Shown: one piece after another, positions 1,051-8,193 of the stretch
Layout: each line of letters opens with the position of its first letter
Position numbering within the stretch: position 1 is the stretch's first letter
IMG/VR virus record: IMGVR_UViG_3300028956_000044
Origin: a virus
Taxonomy: Duplodnaviria > Heunggongvirae > Uroviricota > Caudoviricetes
Reading direction: 5' to 3' (one strand)
Length of the DNA: 9,055 bases
Position numbers and translations under genes: made by a program
The notes under the pieces: model-generated
Told to the model about the DNA's origin: nothing
Seen by the model: only the letters and a program-made list of their open reading frames with translations
Database searches by the model: none

Positions 1051-1552
1051 AATTCCATCCAGCTTTTTGTTGGTATTGCTGTCGATACGCAAGCTTGAAA
1101 GCAATTGCTTTTTCTATAAGTTCGTCAGTTTCACGATCTACAACGGCAGGATCTGCAAAAAGCAGTCCGGATTCCACCACATCGCCATATTCTTTATTTA
1201 ACCCGGCGATCATGTACGTAATACTTTTTCCATCACTGATCTCACGATACAACCTGAAATCACTAATCCGGATAGCCTCCATAATCGCAGGCACTAGCGC
1301 CGTGAACTTTTCACGCTTATCCCTGGTGTCGATAGCCTTCCAGCGTTCGAATATCTTCACTCGATTAACGCCAAGCGCTCGCTGATCAACCGCGCCACCT
1401 TCATCTGTGACACGCTGAACATCGATGTTCGGGCGCTCTTTCAAAGCCCAGAATGCTTCAGTGATTAATATCGTCGCCTGCTCCTGTGTCATTCCTGGTC
1501 GACATATCCAGGCATCCAGAGCCTCACGAGCCTGTTCAGGAGTGATTTTCAT
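1031..1552 (-). CDS. 173-aa early protein in CII/YdaT position, function unknown
   Basis: ATG start (complement of 1550-1552) overlaps the dicC-like stop by 17 nt; its stop overlaps the next gene start by 20 nt (translational coupling layout). Sits immediately downstream of the Cro-like gene. No motif I can name with confidence. Confidence 0.6.
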   Translation of the reverse strand: MKITPEQAREALDAWICRPGMTQEQATILITEAFWALKERPNIDVQRVTDEGGAVDQRALGVNRVKIFERWKAIDTRDKREKFTALVPAIMEAIRISDFRLYREISDGKSITYMIAGLNKEYGDVVESGLLFADPAVVDRETDELIEKAIAFKLAYRQQYQQKAGWNYESSFC

Positions 1553-1766
1553 TGTTCAACCGCCCCGCCCGCTTCGTCTTACGATATTCATCATAAACTT
1601 TGGGATCATACTGAAGCTCCCCGCCAGATGCCTCCTGTAGACGCATCGCGCGACCTTCGGGAACTAAATCCCCTTTCCAGCTATAAAGCGAAGCCAAACG
1701 AATACCTGCTGCTTGTGCAAGTTTTGTTTTTGAACCGAAATACAAAAGAGCGTCAGTTTTAAGCAT
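1536..1766 (-). CDS. dicC: Cro-like regulator DicC
   Basis: 76-aa ORF divergent from the repressor gene, ATG at complement of 1764-1766. The length and divergent position match E. coli Qin DicC (76 aa) as I recall it. Promoter-like -35 TTGACT / 17 nt / -10 TATTTT on the minus strand (complement of 1799-1827) precedes it. Confidence 0.8.
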   Translation of the reverse strand: MLKTDALLYFGSKTKLAQAAGIRLASLYSWKGDLVPEGRAMRLQEASGGELQYDPKVYDEYRKTKRAGRLNNENHS

Positions 1767-1849: not shown

Positions 1850-2257
1850 ATGGAAACAAAAAATTTAACTATCGGCGAACGCATTAGGTATCGTCGGAAA
1901 AACCTCAAACACACCCAAAGGTCTCTTGCTAAAGCCCTGAAAATCTCCCATGTGTCTGTATCACAATGGGAACGGGATGATAGTGAACCTACAGGGAAGA
2001 ACCTTTTTGCCCTCAGCAAAGTATTGCAATGCTCACCAACATGGATTCTATTTGGCGATGAAGACAAGCAACCAACACCACCTGTTGAGAAGCCAGTTGC
2101 CTTATCCCCCAAAGAACTAGAGCTCCTTGAGCTGTTTAATGCACTGCCAGAATCAGAACAGGATACCCAGCTCGCCGAAATGCGAGCTCGAGTAAAAAAC
2201 TTCAATAAACTCTTTGAAGAATTACTAAAAGCCCGTCAGCGGACAAATAAAAGATAA
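1850..2257 (+). CDS. dicA: XRE-family HTH repressor DicA (cI-like immunity repressor)
   Basis: 135-aa ORF with an N-terminal HTH segment (LKHTQRSLAKALKISHVSVSQWERD) typical of XRE/cI-type repressors. The length equals the 135 aa I recall for E. coli DicA, and it is divergent from the Cro-like gene with palindromic operators between. Confidence 0.85.
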   Translation: METKNLTIGERIRYRRKNLKHTQRSLAKALKISHVSVSQWERDDSEPTGKNLFALSKVLQCSPTWILFGDEDKQPTPPVEKPVALSPKELELLELFNALPESEQDTQLAEMRARVKNFNKLFEELLKARQRTNKR

Positions 2258-2317
2258 CATCATCAATGAGTTATCTTTTACCACATCAATCATGTTAGCC
2301 ATAACATACAAAATCAC

Positions 2318-2346
2318 TTGACCTATATGTTAGCCATGGCTAATCT
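2318..2346 (+). promoter_or_regulatory. putative DicA-repressed promoter of the rightward dicB operon, with operator palindrome TTAGCCATGGCTAA (2330-2343)
   Basis: TTGACC (2318-2323), 17-nt spacer, TAATCT (2341-2346; weak -10). A perfect 14-bp palindrome at 2330-2343 overlaps the spacer and -10, and a partial copy ATGTTAGCCAT lies at 2292-2302. Exact -10 assignment is uncertain. Confidence 0.5.
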
Positions 2347-2427
2347 TATTTACATCAACACACCGCACGGTGTTCTCAGCAAACAGTTCCGCTACCCCAG
2401 CGTTAAGGGGAAACAGAGGATTTCTCA

Positions 2428-2784
2428 GTGGGCGAAGTCAAACATCAGAATGGAAGGCGTCCAGGGATCAGCAAAGAAACAGCGATGGCGCTTTATATTG
2501 ATATCAGCGCCATTGCCGGACAGGTAAGAATTATCAGAGCGGTAACTAAGCGGTATGCGCCTTTACTTCAGAAAGTCTCTGGTGAGTGCACCGAAGATAT
2601 TGTCAACGATTTCGTCATCAAACTGCGAGGACTCATCTTCAGTTACAAGGTGACCACAATTTTTGCAGATGGCTCCCGCGAAACTGTCAGAGCCCTGCGG
2701 TTTAAAGGATGTGTCAAAGACTTCGCCACCACATTCTGGGCAAGAAAACTTGATTGTATTCATAACCAATTTCCTCTCGAGTAA
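2428..2784 (+). CDS. 118-aa ORF at the position of ydfA/ydfB in the dicB operon
   Basis: GTG start 7 nt after AGAGGA (2415-2420); first gene after the putative operon promoter. In K-12 I recall two small genes here (ydfA 51 aa, ydfB 42 aa); this window has one continuous frame. Its 3' two-thirds overlaps an antisense zinc-ribbon ORF, so the true extent is uncertain. Confidence 0.45.
   Translation: MGEVKHQNGRRPGISKETAMALYIDISAIAGQVRIIRAVTKRYAPLLQKVSGECTEDIVNDFVIKLRGLIFSYKVTTIFADGSRETVRALRFKGCVKDFATTFWARKLDCIHNQFPLE
2563..2763 (-). CDS. 66-aa Cys4 zinc-ribbon small protein, antisense to the ydfA/ydfB-equivalent region
   Basis: Minus-strand ORF MNTIKFSCPECGGEVFDTSFKPQGSDSFAGAICKNCGHLVTEDESSQFDDEIVDNIFGALTRDFLK with ATG at complement of 2761-2763, preceded by GAGAGG (complement of 2774-2779). 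Shows CPEC-x17-CKNC, a canonical zinc-ribbon spacing, followed by an acidic tail. Could still be a chance antisense frame. Confidence 0.35.
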   Translation of the reverse strand: MNTIKFSCPECGGEVFDTSFKPQGSDSFAGAICKNCGHLVTEDESSQFDDEIVDNIFGALTRDFLK

Positions 2785-2855
2785 CAGACCCCTCAGAGGA
2801 TACCACCTCGCCTGACGTGGTTAAAAGCAGGCAACGCTAACCACAAGGAGCCGAC

Positions 2856-3074
2856 ATGCAGAAACGAGAACCCGTCATCATCGCGCCAGACTATACCGAT
2901 GATGAACTTTATGAGTGGATGCGCCAGAAAATTAATGCAGCGCAGGATTTGAAATGGGCCAATGAAGCCAGGGCTAAGCAGGCTGAAAATCTGTCCGCTC
3001 TGGAGCAGGATATCACCAGGCTGGAAAAAGCAGCGGCATTAAGCATTGCCAGAATGATTACATACCCGCGTTAA
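2856..3074 (+). CDS. ydfC: YdfC-like small protein (72 aa), dicB operon
   Basis: ATG 5 nt after AAGGAG (2842-2847). The 72-aa length and position, about 340 bp upstream of DicF, match K-12 ydfC as I recall it; the protein sequence itself was not recognised. Confidence 0.6.
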   Translation: MQKREPVIIAPDYTDDELYEWMRQKINAAQDLKWANEARAKQAENLSALEQDITRLEKAAALSIARMITYPR

Positions 3075-3215
3075 TAGATAACCAACGAAGCTAAGGTTGG
3101 TAATTAAGGAGTTCTCCACGGGTGAGGTGGAGTGCGTGCGCCGGACACGGGTGAGCATCCGGCACTGACAGTTTACTGAAAGGATATTTCCCTGAAAAGT
3201 CAGACCATAACGCGA

Positions 3216-3280
3216 AAGCGCACGGCGAGGTAGCTGGTTCATAGATAGCCTGTCGTTAAATTTTCGTCGACCGTGCGCTT
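3216..3280 (+). other. RNA stem candidate: perfect 10-bp inverted repeat AAGCGCACGG / CCGTGCGCTT with 45-nt loop
   Basis: Read directly: 3216-3225 is the reverse complement of 3271-3280. Lies in the ORF-free ydfC-dicF spacer. Confidence 0.4.
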
Positions 3281-3353
3281 CCGGTTGTGGCAATCAGCGA
3301 AATGGCGCGGCGGTAAGTATGGCGGGGTTATTCCTTCCCCCGTTGAGGACACC

Positions 3354-3390
3354 GGGTTGTCAGGTTGACCATACGCTTAAGTGACAACCC
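3354..3390 (+). other. RNA stem candidate: perfect 9-bp inverted repeat GGGTTGTCA / TGACAACCC with 19-nt loop, 26 nt upstream of DicF
   Basis: Read directly: 3354-3362 is the reverse complement of 3382-3390. Confidence 0.4.
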
Positions 3391-3415
3391 CACTGCAACG
3401 CCCTCTGTTATCAAT

Positions 3416-3473
3416 TTTCTGGTGACGTTTGGCGGTATCAGTTTTACTCCGTGACTGCTCTGCCGCCCTTTTT
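3416..3473 (+). ncRNA. dicF: DicF small regulatory RNA (ftsZ-targeting sRNA of Qin-type prophages)
   Basis: The 53 nt at 3416-3468 match, to my recollection base for base, the E. coli DicF sequence. They end in a GC-rich hairpin plus a TTTTT run at 3469-3473. Position between ydfC and dicB is syntenic with K-12 Qin. Confidence 0.85.
3431..3473 (+). terminator. intrinsic terminator forming the DicF 3' end
   Basis: GGCGG (3431-3435) pairs with CCGCC (3463-3467), with an inner CAG/CTG pair, followed by CTTTTT. Confidence 0.75.
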
Positions 3474-3481
3474 AAAGTGAA

Positions 3482-3621
3482 TTTTGTGATGCGGTGAATG
3501 CGGCTAAGCGCACGCGGAACAGTTAAAACCAAAAACAGTGTTATGGGTGGATTCTCTGTATCCGGCGTTAATTGTTAACTGGTTAACGTCACCTGGAGGC
3601 ACCAGGCACCGCATCACAAAA
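3482..3621 (+). other. perfect 15-bp long-range inverted repeat bracketing the dicF-dicB spacer
   Basis: 3482-3496 TTTTGTGATGCGGTG is the exact reverse complement of 3607-3621 CACCGCATCACAAAA. Arm A starts 9 nt after the DicF T-run; arm B ends 21 nt before the dicB ATG. Confidence 0.5.
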
Positions 3622-3642
3622 CTCATTGTTGAGGGCGCGATA

Positions 3643-3831
3643 ATGAAAACGTTATTACCAAACGTTAATACGTCTGAAGGTTGTTTTGAAATTGGTGTCA
3701 CTATCAGTAATCCTGTATTTACTGAAGATGCCATTAACAAAAGAAAACACGAACGGGAGTTATTAAATAAAGTATGCATTGTTTCAATGCTGGCCCGTTT
3801 ACGTCTGATGCCAAAAGGATGTGCACAATGA
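3643..3831 (+). CDS. dicB: cell-division inhibitor DicB (62 aa)
   Basis: ATG at 3643 preceded by GAGGG (3631-3635). The 62-aa product MKTLLPNVNTSEGCFEIGVTISNPVF matches my recollection of DicB, and it sits about 170 nt downstream of DicF as in K-12. The track's 97-aa version is an in-frame GTG extension with no RBS. Confidence 0.85.
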   Translation: MKTLLPNVNTSEGCFEIGVTISNPVFTEDAINKRKHERELLNKVCIVSMLARLRLMPKGCAQ

Positions 3832-4112: not shown

Positions 4113-6554
4113 ATGAGCACTGATAAAGAAGAATTTGCACTATATTGCGAAGCAAAAAATGACAAAGTAAGAAAACGCCTAGGAATTAAAGGTGGTTTTT
4201 ACTGGACTACAGCAAAAAAATTATCTGTTGCAATCTCCCGCTGCATTACCGCAATGGATGACAACGATTATGATGAAGACGACTTTAAAAAACCCGTCCG
4301 CGTCAATTTGCCCGTTGTTGACGACCTTCCGCCAGAAGGCGTGTTTGATACTGAATTCTGCAACCGCTATGAAAAAGGCGGGAAAGATGGCATCACAATG
4401 ACATTTATCGGCCCTTCCCCCTCTGTTCAGGACAAACCAGCCAGCACTGACAATACCAACATCAACGGCGAAGCCATGACTGAGATTGAGGAGAGCATGC
4501 TTCTGCCTGTCTCCGGTCAGGAACTGCCCATTCGTTGGCTTGCTCAACACGGCAGCGAAAAACCAGTAACGCACGTTTCACGCGACGAACTCCAGGCATT
4601 ACACATTGCACGGGCTGAAGAACTACCGGCTGTTACTGCCCTGGCTATTTCGCATAAAACCAGTCTGCTCGACTCGCTGGAGATTCGCGACCTCCACAAA
4701 CTGGTTCGTGACACTGACAAAGTTTTCCCTAATCCTGGTAATTCAGACCTGGGACTAATAACTGCTTTTTTCGAAGCATACCTAGACGCTGACTACACTG
4801 ATCGGGGTCTGCTGACAAAAGAGTGGATGAAAGGAAATCGTGTTTCACGCATCACCCGCACGGCTTCCGGTGCTAATGCTGGCGGTGGGAACAAAACCGA
4901 TCGCAATCCGAATTTAGTACACACCCTCGACACACTGGATGTGGAGATTGCAGCAGCCACACTTCCGATGGATTTTAATATTTATGAAATTCCGGGCAGC
5001 GTTTATCGTCGCGCAAAAGAAGTAGTCCTGAACAAAGAAAGTCCGTTCAAAGAATGGTCCGCAGCACTTCGTGCAACCCCGGGTATTCTGGACTATTCCC
5101 GCGCCGCTATTTTTGCACTTATCCGAAGCGCACACCCTGAATTTTATCACTACCCGGGACGCCTTCAGGGGTATATCAACGCCTATTTGACGGAAACTGA
5201 TCACGAGAACCCCAGCAAGGAAACTCTCACAGCTGCCCGGCATACGCCGGAAAAAGATATCCTGGAAGAAATTAACCGCGAGGTGGTTACTGAGCGTGAA
5301 ACAGAAGAAGAAAAACCACAACCATCTGACGCAATGGCAGGTGAACAGGCAACAACTGAAACAATGGAACCGGATACAACTGAACATGGCCAGAACGCGC
5401 AGTCGCTGGATGCTCAGTCGCAGGTGAGTTCCGCTAACCAAGTAAAAGTCACCGCTGACGAAGTAAACAAAATTATGCAGGCAGCCAATATCAGCCAGCC
5501 TGACGCCGATAAGTTACTTGCTGTATCGCGTGGTGAATTTGTTGAGGGGATTAGCGACCCTAATGATCCGAAATGGGTCAAAGGGATCCAGACTCGCGAT
5601 TCTGTGAACCAGAACCAGCATGAATCGGAACGGAACGACCAAAAAGCGGAACAAAACAGCCCAAATGCGTTACAAAACGAGCCAGAAACGAAACAATCCG
5701 AACCAGTGGCGCAACAGGAAGTGGAAAAAGTCTGCACCGCCTGCGGTCAGACCGGCGGCGGCAACTGCCCTGATTGTGGCGCGGTGATGGGCGACGCAAC
5801 ATACCAGGAAACATTCGATGAAGAGTATCAGGTTGAAGTTCAGGAAGATGATCCGGAGGAAATGGAAGGCGCTGAACATCCACACAAGGAGAACACTGGC
5901 GGCAATCAGCATCACGATAGCGATAATGAAACTGGCGAGACGGCAGATCACTCAATTAAGGTGAACGGTCATCAAGAAATCACATCCACCAGCAGGACGT
6001 GTGACCATCTAATGATCGACCTTGAAACCATGGGAAAAAATCCTGATGCCCCGATCATCTCAATAGGTGCAATATTTTTCGATCCGCAAACCGGAGATAT
6101 GGGACCGGAATTTAGTAAGACTATCGATCTGGAAACTGCTGGCGGAGTCATTGATCGGGACACCATTAAATGGTGGCTTAAGCAATCACGCGAAGCGCAA
6201 TCTGCCATTATGACCGATGAAATCCCGTTAGATGATGCACTGTTACAATTGCGGGAATTTATCGACGAAAACTCCGGTGAATTTTTTGTTCAGGTCTGGG
6301 GAAATGGAGCCAACTTCGACAACACGATTTTGCGCCGTTCATACGAACGGCAGGGGATCCCCTGCCCGTGGCGTTACTACAACGATCGCGATGTACGCAC
6401 AATCGTTGAGCTGGGGAAAGCCATAGACTTCGATGCCAGAACGGCTATTCCATTCGAAGGTGAGCGCCATAATGCACTTGATGACGCCCGTTACCAGGCA
6501 AAATACGTTTCAGTTATCTGGCAAAAACTGATCCCGAGTCAGGCTGATTCTTAA
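4113..6554 (+). CDS. ydfE: 813-aa RecE-N-terminal-like protein with C-terminal DEDDh 3'-5' exonuclease domain (full-length YdfE-type)
   Basis: ATG at 4113 with GAGG upstream. Residues ~1-360 resemble the N-terminal region of Rac RecE as I recall it. Residues ~370-625 are acidic and low-complexity, with a C-x2-C-x7-C-x2-C knuckle (nt 5733-5777). Residues 630-813 show DEDDh motifs: MIDLETMG (D636/E638, nt 6018-6026), [10 protein letters not shown] (D736, nt 6318-6320), HNALDDARY (H786, nt 6468-6470). Gene symbol is by synteny with K-12 ydfE, where I recall only a truncated remnant. Confidence 0.85.
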
Positions 6555-6897: not shown

Positions 6898-8193
6898 ATG
6901 AGAGAAGTTGAAATGAAATATCCGACAGGCGTGGAAAACCATGGAGGGAAATTACGTATCTGGTTTGTTTATAAAGGCGTAAGAGTCAGGGAAAATCTGG
7001 GGGTTCCTGACACATCAAAAAACAGGCGCGTTGCAGGTGAACTACGCTCCTCTGTTTGTTACGCAATAAAAACTGGTGTTTTCGACTATGCAAAACAGTT
7101 TCCCTCCTCACGCAATCTGGAAAAATTTGGTGAGGCCCGACAAGATTTAACCATAAAAGAACTGGCTGAAAAATTTTTGGCACTGAAAGAAACTGAAGTC
7201 GCCAAAACATCACTCAACACATACCGTGCCGTCATCAAAAATATCCTGAGCATAATCGGTGAAAAAAATCTTGCCTCATCGATTAATAAAGAAAAATTAC
7301 TGGAGGTTCGTAAAGAGCTACTGACTGGATACCAGATCCCCAAAAGTAACTATATTGTTACACAACCAGGGAGATCGGCTGTAACTGTAAATAATTACAT
7401 GACAAATCTTAACGCCGTGTTCCAGTTTGGTGTTGATAACGGTTACCTGGCAGATAATCCGTTTAAGGGGATCTCGCCATTAAAGGAATCAAGAACCATT
7501 CCGGATCCTCTTTCGCGGGAGGAATTTATCCGTCTTATCGATGCGTGCAGAAATCAGCAAGCAAAAAATTTATGGTGTGTTTCTGTTTATACTGGCGTTC
7601 GCCCTGGTGAGCTGTGTGCACTTGGATGGGAGGACATAGATCTGAAAAATGGAACAATGATGATCAGGAGAAATTTAGCAAAAGACCGTTTCACGGTACC
7701 AAAAACACAGGCGGGAACCAATCGGGTCATTCATCTTATTAAGCCAGCAATCGACGCTCTCCGGAGTCAGATGACATTAACGAGACTGAGCAAAGAGCAT
7801 ATCATTGATGTTCACCTCAGAGAGTATGGCAGAACAGAAAAACAAAAATGCACCTTTGTTTTTCAACCTGAAGTGTCAGCGAGAGTAAAAAATTATGGTG
7901 ACCATTTTACCGTTGACTCAATAAGGCAGATGTGGGACGCAGCGATAAAACGTGCCGGACTCCGCCATCGAAAATCATATCAGTCGAGACATACTTATGC
8001 CTGCTGGTCGCTGACAGCTGGTGCTAACCCGGCATTTATAGCAAACCAGATGGGCCATGCAGATGCGCAAATGGTATTTCAGGTATACGGAAAATGGATG
8101 TCTGAAAACAATAATGCACAGGTAGCTTTGTTAAATACACAGTTAAGCGAGTTTGCCCCAACCATGCCCCATAACGAAGCAATGAAAAATTAA
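6898..8193 (+). CDS. intQ: tyrosine site-specific integrase (Rac IntR-like; intact IntQ-type)
   Basis: 431-aa ORF. Tyrosine-recombinase catalytic segment visible: HRKSYQSRHTYACWSLTAGANP ... VFQVYGKWM. The MKYPTGVENHGGKLRIWF N-terminus resembles the Rac IntR family as I recall it. The second ATG at 6913 may be the true start. Symbol is by position next to rspB; K-12 intQ is, as I recall, a pseudogene. Confidence 0.9.
   Translation: MREVEMKYPTGVENHGGKLRIWFVYKGVRVRENLGVPDTSKNRRVAGELRSSVCYAIKTGVFDYAKQFPSSRNLEKFGEARQDLTIKELAEKFLALKETEVAKTSLNTYRAVIKNILSIIGEKNLASSINKEKLLEVRKELLTGYQIPKSNYIVTQPGRSAVTVNNYMTNLNAVFQFGVDNGYLADNPFKGISPLKESRTIPDPLSREEFIRLIDACRNQQAKNLWCVSVYTGVRPGELCALGWEDIDLKNGTMMIRRNLAKDRFTVPKTQAGTNRVIHLIKPAIDALRSQMTLTRLSKEHIIDVHLREYGRTEKQKCTFVFQPEVSARVKNYGDHFTVDSIRQMWDAAIKRAGLRHRKSYQSRHTYACWSLTAGANPAFIANQMGHADAQMVFQVYGKWMSENNNAQVALLNTQLSEFAPTMPHNEAMKN

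What the first reader, a model, noticed from the sequence alone, without database searches (positions are those of the whole stretch)
2428..2784. Single 118-aa ORF where K-12 Qin has two small genes (ydfA, ydfB)
A continuous frame with a good RBS (AGAGGA plus GTG) fills the space between the dicB-operon promoter and ydfC. By my recollection K-12 annotates 51-aa and 42-aa genes here. Either this strain carries the ancestral unsplit gene, or the frame is fortuitously open across the antisense zinc-ribbon ORF.
Basis: partly seen in the sequence, partly recalled or inferred. Interest (0 to 1): 0.4.

Follow-up and report, generated by a model that had tools for sequence, protein, structure and literature searches.

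The report
Nested antisense pair replacing ydfA–ydfB
The 118-codon frame is real but unrelated to K-12's ydfA/ydfB: it is an alternative prophage cassette with a conserved small zinc-ribbon gene nested on the opposite strand, and both frames look protein-coding in related phages, although in E. coli only the zinc-ribbon frame shows clear selection.

Summary
The ORF exists exactly as described: 2428-2784, +, GTG, 118 aa, with AGAGGA 7 nt upstream. It is not an unsplit ydfA-ydfB. Homology to K-12 stops at 2413 and resumes at ydfC, and the ORF shows no protein similarity to YdfA or YdfB. It is an alternative cassette found in 937 of 5426 complete E. coli genomes; the ydfA-ydfB cassette is in 3746.

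Nested on the minus strand (2563-2763) is a 66-aa four-cysteine protein that passes the NCBIfam "ECs_2282 family putative zinc-binding protein" cutoff. RefSeq annotates one strand or the other for identical DNA.

I collected about 250 copies from at least 8 lineages (E. coli, Klebsiella, Citrobacter, Serratia-like and others). Both frames are open in every lineage. No locus with an intact zinc-ribbon ORF has a broken long ORF.

The part of the long ORF outside the overlap (2488-2562) evolves like a protein (dN/dS 0.49, p=3e-6). In non-E. coli lineages, conditional tests show selection on both frames, and control genes show none. Within the window's own E. coli clade, only the zinc-ribbon frame is constrained (dN/dS about 0.2).

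The first 19 codons (2428-2484) look unconstrained. The conserved core starts at ATG 2485 (99 aa).

Verdict: probably a nested antisense gene pair. Function is unknown and no expression data exist.

The parts
2428..2784 (+). The 118-aa ORF of the finding (GTG start, TAA stop at 2782-2784). Also annotated at this length in the induced phage vB_EcoS-640R1.
   Evidence: Matches phrog_21318 at E=9e-67 over residues 20-118 only.
2428..2484 (+). N-terminal 19 codons, present only in the E. coli clade. They show no codon periodicity and are probably an untranslated linker or a dispensable extension.
   Evidence: Changes by codon position are 12/13/13. dN/dS is 1.07. There is no homology to other lineages upstream of about 2470-2485. 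The O157:H7 copies align over 356 nt with a shifted upstream frame, consistent with a 1-nt deletion.
2485..2784 (+). Conserved core of the long ORF: 99 aa from ATG 2485, which is PGAP's call WP_001240336.
   Evidence: A start codon lies within 0-4 codons of this position in lineages A, B, D, E and the Serratia-like one, with AGGAG-type SDs in B and D. The core aligns without gaps across lineages.
2488..2562 (+). The part of the long ORF that lies outside the zinc-ribbon ORF. This is the segment that carries an unambiguous plus-frame coding signal.
   Evidence: dN/dS is 0.49 (p=3e-6) in the ORF frame and 0.97 in the antisense same-triplet frame. The result holds with de-duplicated changes: 0.46, p=6.5e-5. 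It is 0.42 in non-E. coli lineages but 0.81-0.97 within the E. coli clade.
2563..2763 (-). Zinc-ribbon ORF, 66 aa (ATG 2763..2761, TAA stop = 2565..2563). It is fully nested in the long ORF and uses the same triplets, so codon position 2 faces position 2.
   Evidence: NCBIfam NF047912 scores 57.2 bits against a cutoff of 37. Four Cys are invariant in all homologues down to 48% identity. dN/dS is 0.44 overall and 0.21 in the E. coli clade. RefSeq annotates it as WP_001092153.
2770..2778 (-). Shine-Dalgarno sequence of the zinc-ribbon ORF (GAGAGGAAA, 6 nt before the ATG).
   Evidence: An SD plus ATG is kept in every lineage although the surrounding sequence differs: AAGGAGGT in B, AGAAGGA in C, D and F, and AAAAGGAA in the Serratia-like lineage.
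2797..2835 (-). Conserved element upstream of the zinc-ribbon ORF. Candidate extended -10 promoter (TGG-TATCCT = 2805..2797, with a -35-like TTAACC = 2824..2819) plus a GCCTG...CAGGC stem.
   Evidence: It is conserved in all lineages, with the -10-like hexamer about 33 nt from the ATG. The promoter scan did not call it (8 of 12 matches). The stem shows no covariation. A 37-nt core also occurs in phages that lack the cassette. Its role as a promoter is inferred, not shown.
2415..2420 (+). AGAGGA, the RBS-like motif 7 nt before GTG 2428.
   Evidence: It lies just right of the left mosaic junction at 2413/2414.
2258..2413 (+). Left conserved flank: the DicA-repressed promoter/operator region and leader shared with K-12 (95.5% identical). 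TTGACC 2318-2323 and TAATCT 2341-2346 are read off the sequence.
   Evidence: Repression by DicA/DicC is from PMC5069750. The hexamers were not called by the scan.
2247..2277 (.). A/T-rich hairpin after dicA, followed by a T-run on both strands. It is bidirectional and terminator-like, and is the likely end of a minus-strand transcript from the zinc-ribbon gene.
   Evidence: -19.6 kcal/mol (z=-4.3) on the minus strand and -11.6 kcal/mol (z=-5.2) on the plus strand.
2856..3074 (+). ydfC, the right conserved flank of the cassette.

Best explanation
Window 2414-2796 is an alternative first cassette of the DicA-repressed dicBF-type early operon of a Qin-like lambdoid prophage. It sits in the slot that K-12 fills with the unrelated ydfA-ydfB.

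The cassette carries two nested, oppositely oriented reading frames built on the same triplets:
- A sense ORF, co-directional with the early operon. Its conserved core is 99 aa from ATG 2485; the 118-aa GTG form is specific to the E. coli clade.
- A 66-aa four-Cys zinc-ribbon ORF (ECs_2282 family) on the minus strand, with its own Shine-Dalgarno sequence and a conserved promoter-like element.

Across the family both frames behave as protein-coding, making this a nested antisense gene pair. In the E. coli clade of this window the zinc-ribbon gene is the one under strong selection. The sense ORF is kept open there but shows relaxed or no detectable constraint.

Inferred mechanism (not shown): the zinc-ribbon gene is transcribed leftward from its own promoter while the early operon is repressed. 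It runs antisense through the sense ORF and the dicB-operon promoter to the bidirectional terminator after dicA. The sense ORF is made only when DicA repression is lifted. Convergent transcription would then make the two products mutually exclusive. The biochemical functions of both proteins are unknown.
For: Cassette replacement:
- Homology to K-12 ends at 2413 and resumes at ydfC.
- There is no protein similarity to YdfA or YdfB.
- The cassette is in 937 of 5426 genomes; ydfA-ydfB is in 3746.

Zinc-ribbon ORF:
- NF047912 scores 57.2 bits against a cutoff of 37.
- Four Cys are invariant and the start and stop positions are conserved down to 48% identity.
- SD plus ATG is kept in all lineages.
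- dN/dS is 0.44 (p=5e-12) overall and 0.21 in E. coli.
- Conditional omega is 0.25-0.40.

Sense ORF:
- It is open in all lineages, including the Serratia-like, E and F lineages.
- None of 213 loci with an intact zinc-ribbon ORF has it broken. This compares with 15 expected stop events, or 7.6 after halving for codon bias (P=4e-6 and 0.004).
- The zinc-ribbon frame uses TCA in 6 of 240 TCN serine codons. All 6 are at codon 2 in lineage B, where TCA is the sense ORF's natural stop. TCA is 34% of TCN codons in the window's other genes.
- The non-overlapping segment has dN/dS 0.49 (p=3e-6), with the antisense control frame at 0.97.
- Conditional omega for the sense frame in the overlap is 0.43 (P=0.004) and 0.69 (P=0.011). 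In non-E. coli lineages it is 0.26 (P=7e-4). The same test on the antisense frames of ydfC, dicB and DUF1482 gives 0.98, 1.02 and 0.98.
- A start codon with an AGGAG-type SD sits at the homologous position in lineages B and D.
- The ORF is always co-directional with the flanking early operon, both downstream of the repressor and downstream of cro.

Other support:
- Gene callers and RefSeq pick either strand for identical DNA.
- A terminator-like hairpin lies at 2247-2277.
Against: - Within the window's own E. coli clade the sense frame looks neutral. dN/dS is 0.81-0.97 in its unique part, and conditional omega is 1.00 and 0.69, neither significant. Operon neighbours, using the S/N counts with sites, have dN/dS of roughly 0.5.
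- Marginal dN/dS of the sense frame in the overlap is 0.92.
- My BLOSUM conservativeness test was not robust. P=0.05 after de-duplication, and one control gene (dicB) scored P=0.006-0.02.
- The counts rest on NJ trees and parsimony in mosaic phage DNA.
- Much of the sampling was anchored on conserved motifs.
- The sense protein family is tiny: 9 clusters among 1.8 billion representatives, never seen away from the zinc-ribbon ORF. It has no Pfam or NCBIfam model.
- AlphaFold confidence is only moderate for both products: pLDDT 69.9 and 64.9.
- No transcription, translation or phenotype data exist for either ORF.
- The promoter assignment is weak (8 of 12 matches) and its core also occurs without the cassette.
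Confidence: 0.55

Rival explanations
1. Only the minus-strand zinc-ribbon ORF is a gene. The long plus ORF is a shadow frame that stays open because the zinc-ribbon gene happens to avoid TTA, CTA and TCA codons.
For: - In the E. coli clade all detectable constraint is on the zinc-ribbon frame. Changes by plus-frame codon position are 65/11/23, zinc-ribbon dN/dS is 0.21, and plus dN/dS is 1.4-1.6 in the overlap and 0.8-1.0 outside it.
- NCBI curates only the zinc-ribbon family.
- The same-triplet antisense frame is the one that most easily stays open.
- The plus family is never found independently of the zinc-ribbon ORF.
Against: - It does not explain the plus-frame periodicity and dN/dS of 0.42-0.49 in the 75 nt outside the zinc-ribbon ORF.
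- It does not explain conserved start codons and SDs at the homologous site.
- It does not explain 0 stops where about 8-15 are expected.
- It does not explain conditional omega of 0.26-0.43 when three control genes give about 1.0.
Confidence: 0.33
2. Only the long plus ORF is a gene, the first cistron of the early operon. The zinc-ribbon ORF is then an annotation artefact on its antisense strand.
For: - Phage annotators and older PGAP runs call the plus ORF.
- The plus ORF has the operon's orientation.
- An O157:H7/O55-type clade carries a TAA after CPECGG in the zinc-ribbon frame, with the plus ORF intact.
Against: - The zinc-ribbon frame has the strongest selection signal everywhere: 0.21-0.44, and conditional omega 0.18-0.40 with P down to 1e-11.
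- The plus-strand triplets opposite the four Cys codons keep both Cys-specifying positions invariant.
- ATG, SD and the stop position are conserved in all lineages.
- There are weak but repeated zinc-ribbon profile hits.
Confidence: 0.04
3. The ORF is the ancestral, unsplit form of ydfA plus ydfB. K-12 acquired a stop or an indel.
For: Only the position: same slot, same promoter and leader, similar total length.
Against: There is no DNA homology between 2414-2855 and K-12 ydfA-ydfB. BLASTP finds nothing. The PHROG families differ and there is no DUF1391 hit.
Confidence: 0.01

Closest known systems
K-12 Qin dicBF operon (ydfA-ydfB-ydfC-dicF-dicB-ydfD), repressed by DicA/DicC
   Same: Same operon frame. 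The window has dicC, a dicA-like repressor, a promoter/leader 95.5% identical to K-12's, ydfC, DicF RNA (Rfam 76.7 bits), DicB (Pfam 133 bits) and DUF1482/YdfD (PMC5069750).
   Different: The ydfA-ydfB slot holds unrelated DNA. The downstream exonuclease (813 aa) and integrase are intact here, whereas K-12 has an IS2-truncated pseudogene.
NCBIfam NF047912, 'ECs_2282 family putative zinc-binding protein'
   Same: The minus ORF passes the curated cutoff and has the CxxC...CxxC pattern.
   Different: The family is a naming model only, with no function, structure or publication found. Its entry says nothing about the conserved ORF on the other strand.
Antisense overlapping genes proposed in E. coli O157:H7 (e.g. 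ano/ECs2385, PMC5960689; three OLGs in EDL933, PMC9927249)
   Same: A shorter ORF is embedded antisense in a longer ORF of an E. coli or prophage genome.
   Different: Those cases rest on RNA-seq, Ribo-seq and phenotypes, and are mostly young and taxonomically restricted. This pair has no expression data. It is conserved across several enterobacterial genera, with sequence-level selection signals on both frames.
Lambda Rz/Rz1 nested genes (my own knowledge, not tested here)
   Same: One phage gene lies wholly inside another, and both are functional.
   Different: Rz1 is on the same strand in the +1 frame. Here the nesting is antisense and the function is unknown.
Lar-family restriction-alleviation proteins (TIGR03655; phrog_6422)
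   Same: Small phage or prophage CxxC...CxxC proteins encoded in early regions.
   Different: The hits are far below threshold: 15.6 bits against a cutoff of 39.6, and E=0.008. The protein is not a member.

Membership tests
YdfA (DUF1391) / YdfB | Sequence similarity to K-12 YdfA or YdfB, or to their profiles | tested here: not met
   There is no DUF1391 or other relevant Pfam hit. BLASTP finds no alignment at E<=100. The PHROGs differ. The DNA does not align.
ECs_2282 family zinc-binding protein (NF047912), minus ORF | HMM score at or above the curated cutoff (37 bits) | tested here: met
   57.2 bits, E=1.1e-15, over profile positions 1-56 of 60.
ECs_2282 family zinc-binding protein (NF047912), minus ORF | Two CxxC pairs able to bind zinc | tested here: met
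   C8, C11, C33 and C36 are invariant in 11 homologues down to 48% identity. The AF2 model shows short beta hairpins plus a C-terminal helix at moderate confidence. Actual zinc binding cannot be tested here.
phrog_21318 (long plus ORF) | Profile match | tested here: met
   E=8.8e-67 over residues 20-118, matching profile positions 1-99 of 99. The family is built from annotated phage ORFs, so membership does not prove that the ORF is translated.
Antisense overlapping (nested) protein-coding gene pair | Both ORFs intact and conserved across divergent lineages | tested here: met
   At least 8 lineages. 213 of 213 loci with an intact zinc-ribbon ORF keep the long ORF. The only indel is 4 codons, in frame for both ORFs.
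Antisense overlapping (nested) protein-coding gene pair | Purifying selection attributable to each frame separately | tested here: inconclusive
   Met for the family as a whole and for non-E. coli lineages. Sense-frame omega is 0.26-0.43 given zinc-ribbon-synonymous changes, the unique part has dN/dS 0.42-0.49, and controls are about 1. Not met for the sense frame within the window's E. coli clade, where omega is 0.8-1.0.
Antisense overlapping (nested) protein-coding gene pair | Transcription and translation of both ORFs | not testable with these tools
   No expression data are available here, and no paper mentions the locus.
Lar family restriction alleviation protein (TIGR03655) | HMM score at or above the cutoff (39.6 bits) | tested here: not met
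   15.6 bits.
Qin-type dicBF early operon | DicA/DicC regulators, DicF RNA and DicB in order on one strand | tested here: met
   HTH_3 repressor at 1850-2257, dicC at 1536-1766 (-), DicF at 3417-3468 (76.7 bits against a threshold of 48), and a DicB Pfam hit of 133 bits.

The most novel reading that the evidence does not exclude
A bona fide, evolutionarily old nested antisense protein-coding pair in lambdoid phages. An early-operon protein of about 95-100 aa and a 62-67 aa zinc-ribbon protein would be read from the same triplets on opposite strands. Convergent transcription next to the immunity repressor would make the two products mutually exclusive read-outs of the lysogenic and derepressed states.
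Probability: 0.4. Interest if true: 0.7.

Novelty: new member of a known kind. Interest (0 to 1): 0.45.

Why it matters
Long antisense overlapping genes in bacteria and their phages are few and disputed. Annotation pipelines forbid them, and here RefSeq flips between strands for identical DNA.

This pair is compact (357 nt). It is present in about 17% of complete E. coli genomes and in other enterobacterial prophages, and it sits at a well-studied regulatory node (DicA/DicC, dicBF). That makes it a cheap, genetically tractable test case: stop codons can be introduced in one frame that are silent in the other.

Practically, the finding corrects a tempting mis-homology (an "unsplit ydfA-ydfB"). 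It also shows that the dicBF operon has at least two unrelated promoter-proximal cassettes.

Tried and rejected
- The genome-contig scan with the zinc-ribbon alignment returned only two chance CxxC matches, in a Bacteroidota and an archaeal MAG.
- The first viral contigs protein scan returned only near-identical E. coli copies. Re-querying with divergent members first gave the useful diversity.
- The BLOSUM conservativeness test first looked strong (P=0.0007-0.0015). I rejected it as decisive. De-duplication gave P=0.05, and a control gene (dicB) gave P=0.006-0.02.
- Marginal dN/dS in the overlap cannot separate the frames. It was replaced by conditional, OLGenie-like ratios with control genes.
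- RNAalifold on the region upstream of the zinc-ribbon ORF found only an invariant 5-bp stem with no covariation. Rfam found only DicF.
- The sigma-70 scan did not call the proposed zinc-ribbon promoter or the K-12-type dicB promoter.
- Literature searches for ECs2282, the WP accessions and NF047912 returned nothing. The paaR2-paaA2-parE2 paper and the embedded-OLG preprint do not mention this locus.

Full report
**What is in the window.** The window is the immunity and early-left region of a Qin-like lambdoid prophage lying next to an rspB-like dehydrogenase gene.
- It holds a replication gene and a YdaT-like gene, then dicC (1536-1766, -) and a dicA-like HTH repressor (1850-2257, +).
- The ORF of the finding follows, and then ydfC (2856-3074).
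- Further on come DicF RNA (3417-3468, Rfam 76.7 bits), dicB, a DUF1482/ydfD-like gene, an intact 813-aa exonuclease and an intact integrase.
- The observation itself is correct. 2428-2784 is a 118-codon GTG ORF, with AGAGGA at 2415-2420, 7 nt upstream.
- A 68/66-aa ORF with CPEC...CKNC motifs lies antisense at 2563-2769/2763.

**The ORF is not an unsplit ydfA-ydfB.**
- K-12 DNA matches the window only for 2258-2413 (95.5% identity, the promoter/operator and leader, ending at GTTAAGGGGAAA) and again from ydfC.
- The 118-aa product has no BLASTP similarity to YdfA or YdfB and falls in a different PHROG.
- This is a mosaic cassette swap between conserved flanks. The cassette occurs in 937 of 5426 complete E. 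coli genomes (1403 copies, all at 90% identity or more). The ydfA-ydfB cassette occurs in 3746.
- A module 100% identical to the window's is present in the sequenced phage vB_EcoS-640R1.

**Two annotations exist for the same DNA.**
- The minus ORF passes NCBIfam NF047912, "ECs_2282 family putative zinc-binding protein", with 57.2 bits against a cutoff of 37. The plus ORF has no Pfam or NCBIfam hit.
- RefSeq records with DNA identical to the window carry either the 66-aa minus-strand protein or a plus-strand "hypothetical protein". Phage records annotate the 118-aa ORF.
- The two frames use the same triplets. Plus position 1 is minus position 3, and position 2 faces position 2.

**Comparative material.**
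- Protein searches, exact-protein look-ups, a DNA-pattern scan and degenerate-peptide scans gave about 250 loci.
- They fall into at least 8 lineages:
  - A: E. coli Qin-like, which includes the window.
  - B: Klebsiella and Citrobacter.
  - C, D, E and F: prophage and metagenome contigs.
  - Two Serratia-like loci.
- Zinc-ribbon protein identity to the window falls to 48%.
- The region from the conserved plus start to the zinc-ribbon start aligns without gaps, apart from one 4-codon indel.
- The module always lies beside the immunity genes. It sits directly downstream of the repressor, or in lineage B directly downstream of cro. The long ORF is always co-directional with the flanking early operon and the zinc-ribbon ORF is always antisense to it.

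**Evidence that the zinc-ribbon ORF is a gene.**
- Four Cys are invariant.
- The ATG and the stop position are conserved.
- A Shine-Dalgarno sequence is retained in every lineage although its sequence differs: GAGAGGAAA, AAGGAGGT or AGAAGGA.
- Tree-based substitution counts on 52 distinct sequences give dN/dS 0.44 (p=5e-12) for its frame in the overlap, and 0.21 within E. coli.
- Conditional ratios are 0.25 among changes synonymous in the plus frame and 0.40 among changes non-synonymous in it (P=2e-5 and 4e-11).

**Evidence that the long ORF is more than a shadow.**
1. It is open in every lineage. None of 213 loci with an intact zinc-ribbon ORF has it interrupted. If only the zinc-ribbon frame were selected, about 15 stop-creating or stop-removing events would be expected on the tree, or 7.6 if halved for codon bias (P=4e-6 and 0.004). 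The zinc-ribbon frame uses TCT, TCC and TCG freely but never TCA, except where TCA is the plus ORF's natural stop in lineage B. TCA makes up 34% of TCN serine codons in the window's other genes.
2. The 75 nt of the long ORF that lie outside the zinc-ribbon ORF (2488-2562) evolve like a protein in exactly that frame. dN/dS is 0.49 (p=3e-6), or 0.46 after de-duplicating changes. The antisense same-triplet frame, which is closed there, gives 0.97-1.29.
3. A start codon lies within a few codons of window 2485 in most lineages, with AGGAG-type SDs in B and D.
4. Inside the overlap, changes synonymous for the zinc-ribbon protein are 2.3 times more frequent per site when they are also synonymous in the plus frame (omega 0.43, P=0.004). 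The same test on the antisense frames of three neighbouring single-coding genes (ydfC, dicB, DUF1482) gives 0.98, 1.02 and 0.98.

**Caveats that limit the claim.**
- The plus-frame signal comes from non-E. coli lineages and from branches between lineages. In non-A lineages the unique part has dN/dS 0.42 (p=9e-6) and conditional omega is 0.26 (P=7e-4).
- Within lineage A, the window's own clade, the unique part has dN/dS 0.81-0.97. Conditional omega there is 1.00 and 0.69, neither significant. Only the zinc-ribbon frame is constrained.
- Operon neighbours in largely the same loci have dN/dS of roughly 0.5 (counts). The relaxation is therefore specific to this ORF.
- A BLOSUM-based conservativeness test that first looked strong was not robust and gave a false positive on dicB. 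I do not rely on it.
- Trees are NJ with parsimony on mosaic DNA, and part of the sampling was anchored on conserved motifs.
- Structure prediction is only moderately confident for both products: pLDDT 69.9 for a helix-helix-hairpin-helix model and 64.9 for the zinc ribbon plus C-terminal helix. Fold and sequence searches give no functional lead.
- The plus family is tiny and never seen apart from the zinc-ribbon ORF.
- No paper mentions either ORF.

**Where the long ORF starts.**
- Codons 2-19 (2431-2484) show no periodicity (12/13/13 changes; dN/dS 1.07). They have the highest substitution rate of the cassette and no counterpart in other lineages.
- The O157:H7 copies align over 356 rather than 357 nt and read in a different frame upstream. 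This fits a 1-nt deletion that puts GTG 2428 out of frame. PGAP calls the 99-aa ATG form there.
- On the other hand, GTG 2428 (ATG in one variant) with its AGAGGA is kept in 34 of 34 distinct lineage-A sequences that have the frame. It occupies the position of the ydfA start relative to the shared leader.
- The conserved protein is therefore the 99-aa core. The 118-aa form may be what is translated in this strain, with a dispensable extension.

**How it most likely works (inference).**
- On the zinc-ribbon strand, a conserved element (2797-2835) places a TGn-TATCCT-like extended -10 about 33 nt upstream of the ATG in all lineages. A hairpin follows that overlaps the SD and has different stem sequences in different lineages.
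- A minus-strand transcript from there would cross the sense ORF, the leader and the DicA-controlled promoter. It would end at the bidirectional terminator-like hairpin at 2247-2277.
- I therefore favour a model in which the zinc-ribbon gene is expressed from the repressed prophage, and the sense ORF is expressed only after derepression. Convergent transcription and antisense pairing would make the two mutually exclusive.
- This fits the persistent selection on the zinc-ribbon frame in resident E. coli prophages.
- None of these expression steps is shown. The 37-nt core of the element also occurs in phages that lack the cassette, so it may have another role.

**Verdict.**
- The "unsplit gene" reading is refuted. 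The "fortuitous frame" reading is only partly right.
- The best-supported description is an alternative dicBF-operon cassette containing a nested antisense ORF pair.
  - The zinc-ribbon gene is essentially certain.
  - Coding status of the long ORF is probable for the family (about 0.65).
  - It is uncertain for this E. coli clade (about 0.4).
- Both sequences are already in databases. What is new is the evidence that both strands are constrained.

Noticed in passing
window 2797-2833 (+), also L265:1501-1537: A 37-nt stretch (AGGATACCACCTCGCCTGACGTGGTTAAAAGCAGGCA) is 100% identical in many E. coli genomes and in phages HannyBb and mEp460_ev081, which lack the cassette. Related versions sit upstream of the zinc-ribbon ORF in all lineages. 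It could be a mosaic boundary sequence, a promoter, or an RNA element of the early-left operon.
   Followed up: partly
window 2770-2800 (-) and homologous positions in L028, L089, L125, L241, L007: The 5' leader of the zinc-ribbon ORF can form a hairpin that overlaps the SD. The stem sequences differ between lineages (CCTCT/AGAGG, TCTTGG/CCAAGA, CGGTCC/GGACCG), which suggests structure conservation. This was seen by eye only; RNAalifold on a MAFFT alignment did not recover it.
   Followed up: partly
L003, L024, L042, L081, L112, L234, L240 (O157:H7/O55-type prophage copies): One clade (42 of the collected loci) carries GAA to TAA at codon 14 of the zinc-ribbon ORF, right after CPECGG. The O157:H7 genome copies also align over 356 rather than 357 nt, which fits a 1-nt deletion near GTG 2428. 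The 99-aa plus ORF stays intact, so the zinc-ribbon gene is dispensable there. L083 has a separate nonsense mutation.
   Followed up: partly
window 2247-2277: An A/T-rich perfect hairpin immediately after the dicA-like gene folds on both strands and has T-runs on both sides (z=-4.3 and -5.2). It looks like a bidirectional terminator separating the repressor gene from the dicB-operon promoter.
   Followed up: partly
window 4113-6554 and 6898-8193: The exonuclease (813 aa) and the integrase (431 aa) are intact. K-12 Qin has an IS2-truncated exonuclease pseudogene. This prophage end is less decayed than K-12's, and the identical module occurs in a sequenced phage (vB_EcoS-640R1).
   Followed up: partly
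L010, L011, L014, L015, L022, L023: In several E. coli-type loci a paaA2-parE2 toxin-antitoxin pair sits between the repressor gene and the cassette. In L012 and L019 a HigB-type toxin gene sits there instead. The slot next to the repressor appears to be a hotspot for accessory cassettes.
   Followed up: no
L028:7579-7974, L089:11380-11931: In lineages C and D the long ORF's frame stays open far upstream (131 and 183 aa from TTG/GTG), and in C it includes a CKSCGY motif. The protein may carry an extra N-terminal segment there, or the frame may simply be open.
   Followed up: no
window 3538-3831: The mechanical ORF list gives dicB as 97 aa from GTG 3538. The Pfam DicB match covers only residues 36-97, so the real gene is the 62-aa form starting at 3643, as RefSeq annotates it.
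   Followed up: yes
window 3100-3400: The region between ydfC and DicF is about 340 nt long and has no convincing ORF on the plus strand. This corresponds to the long untranslated leader described for K-12. In O157 copies the region holds extra annotated ORFs of 135 aa (+) and 77 aa (-).
   Followed up: no
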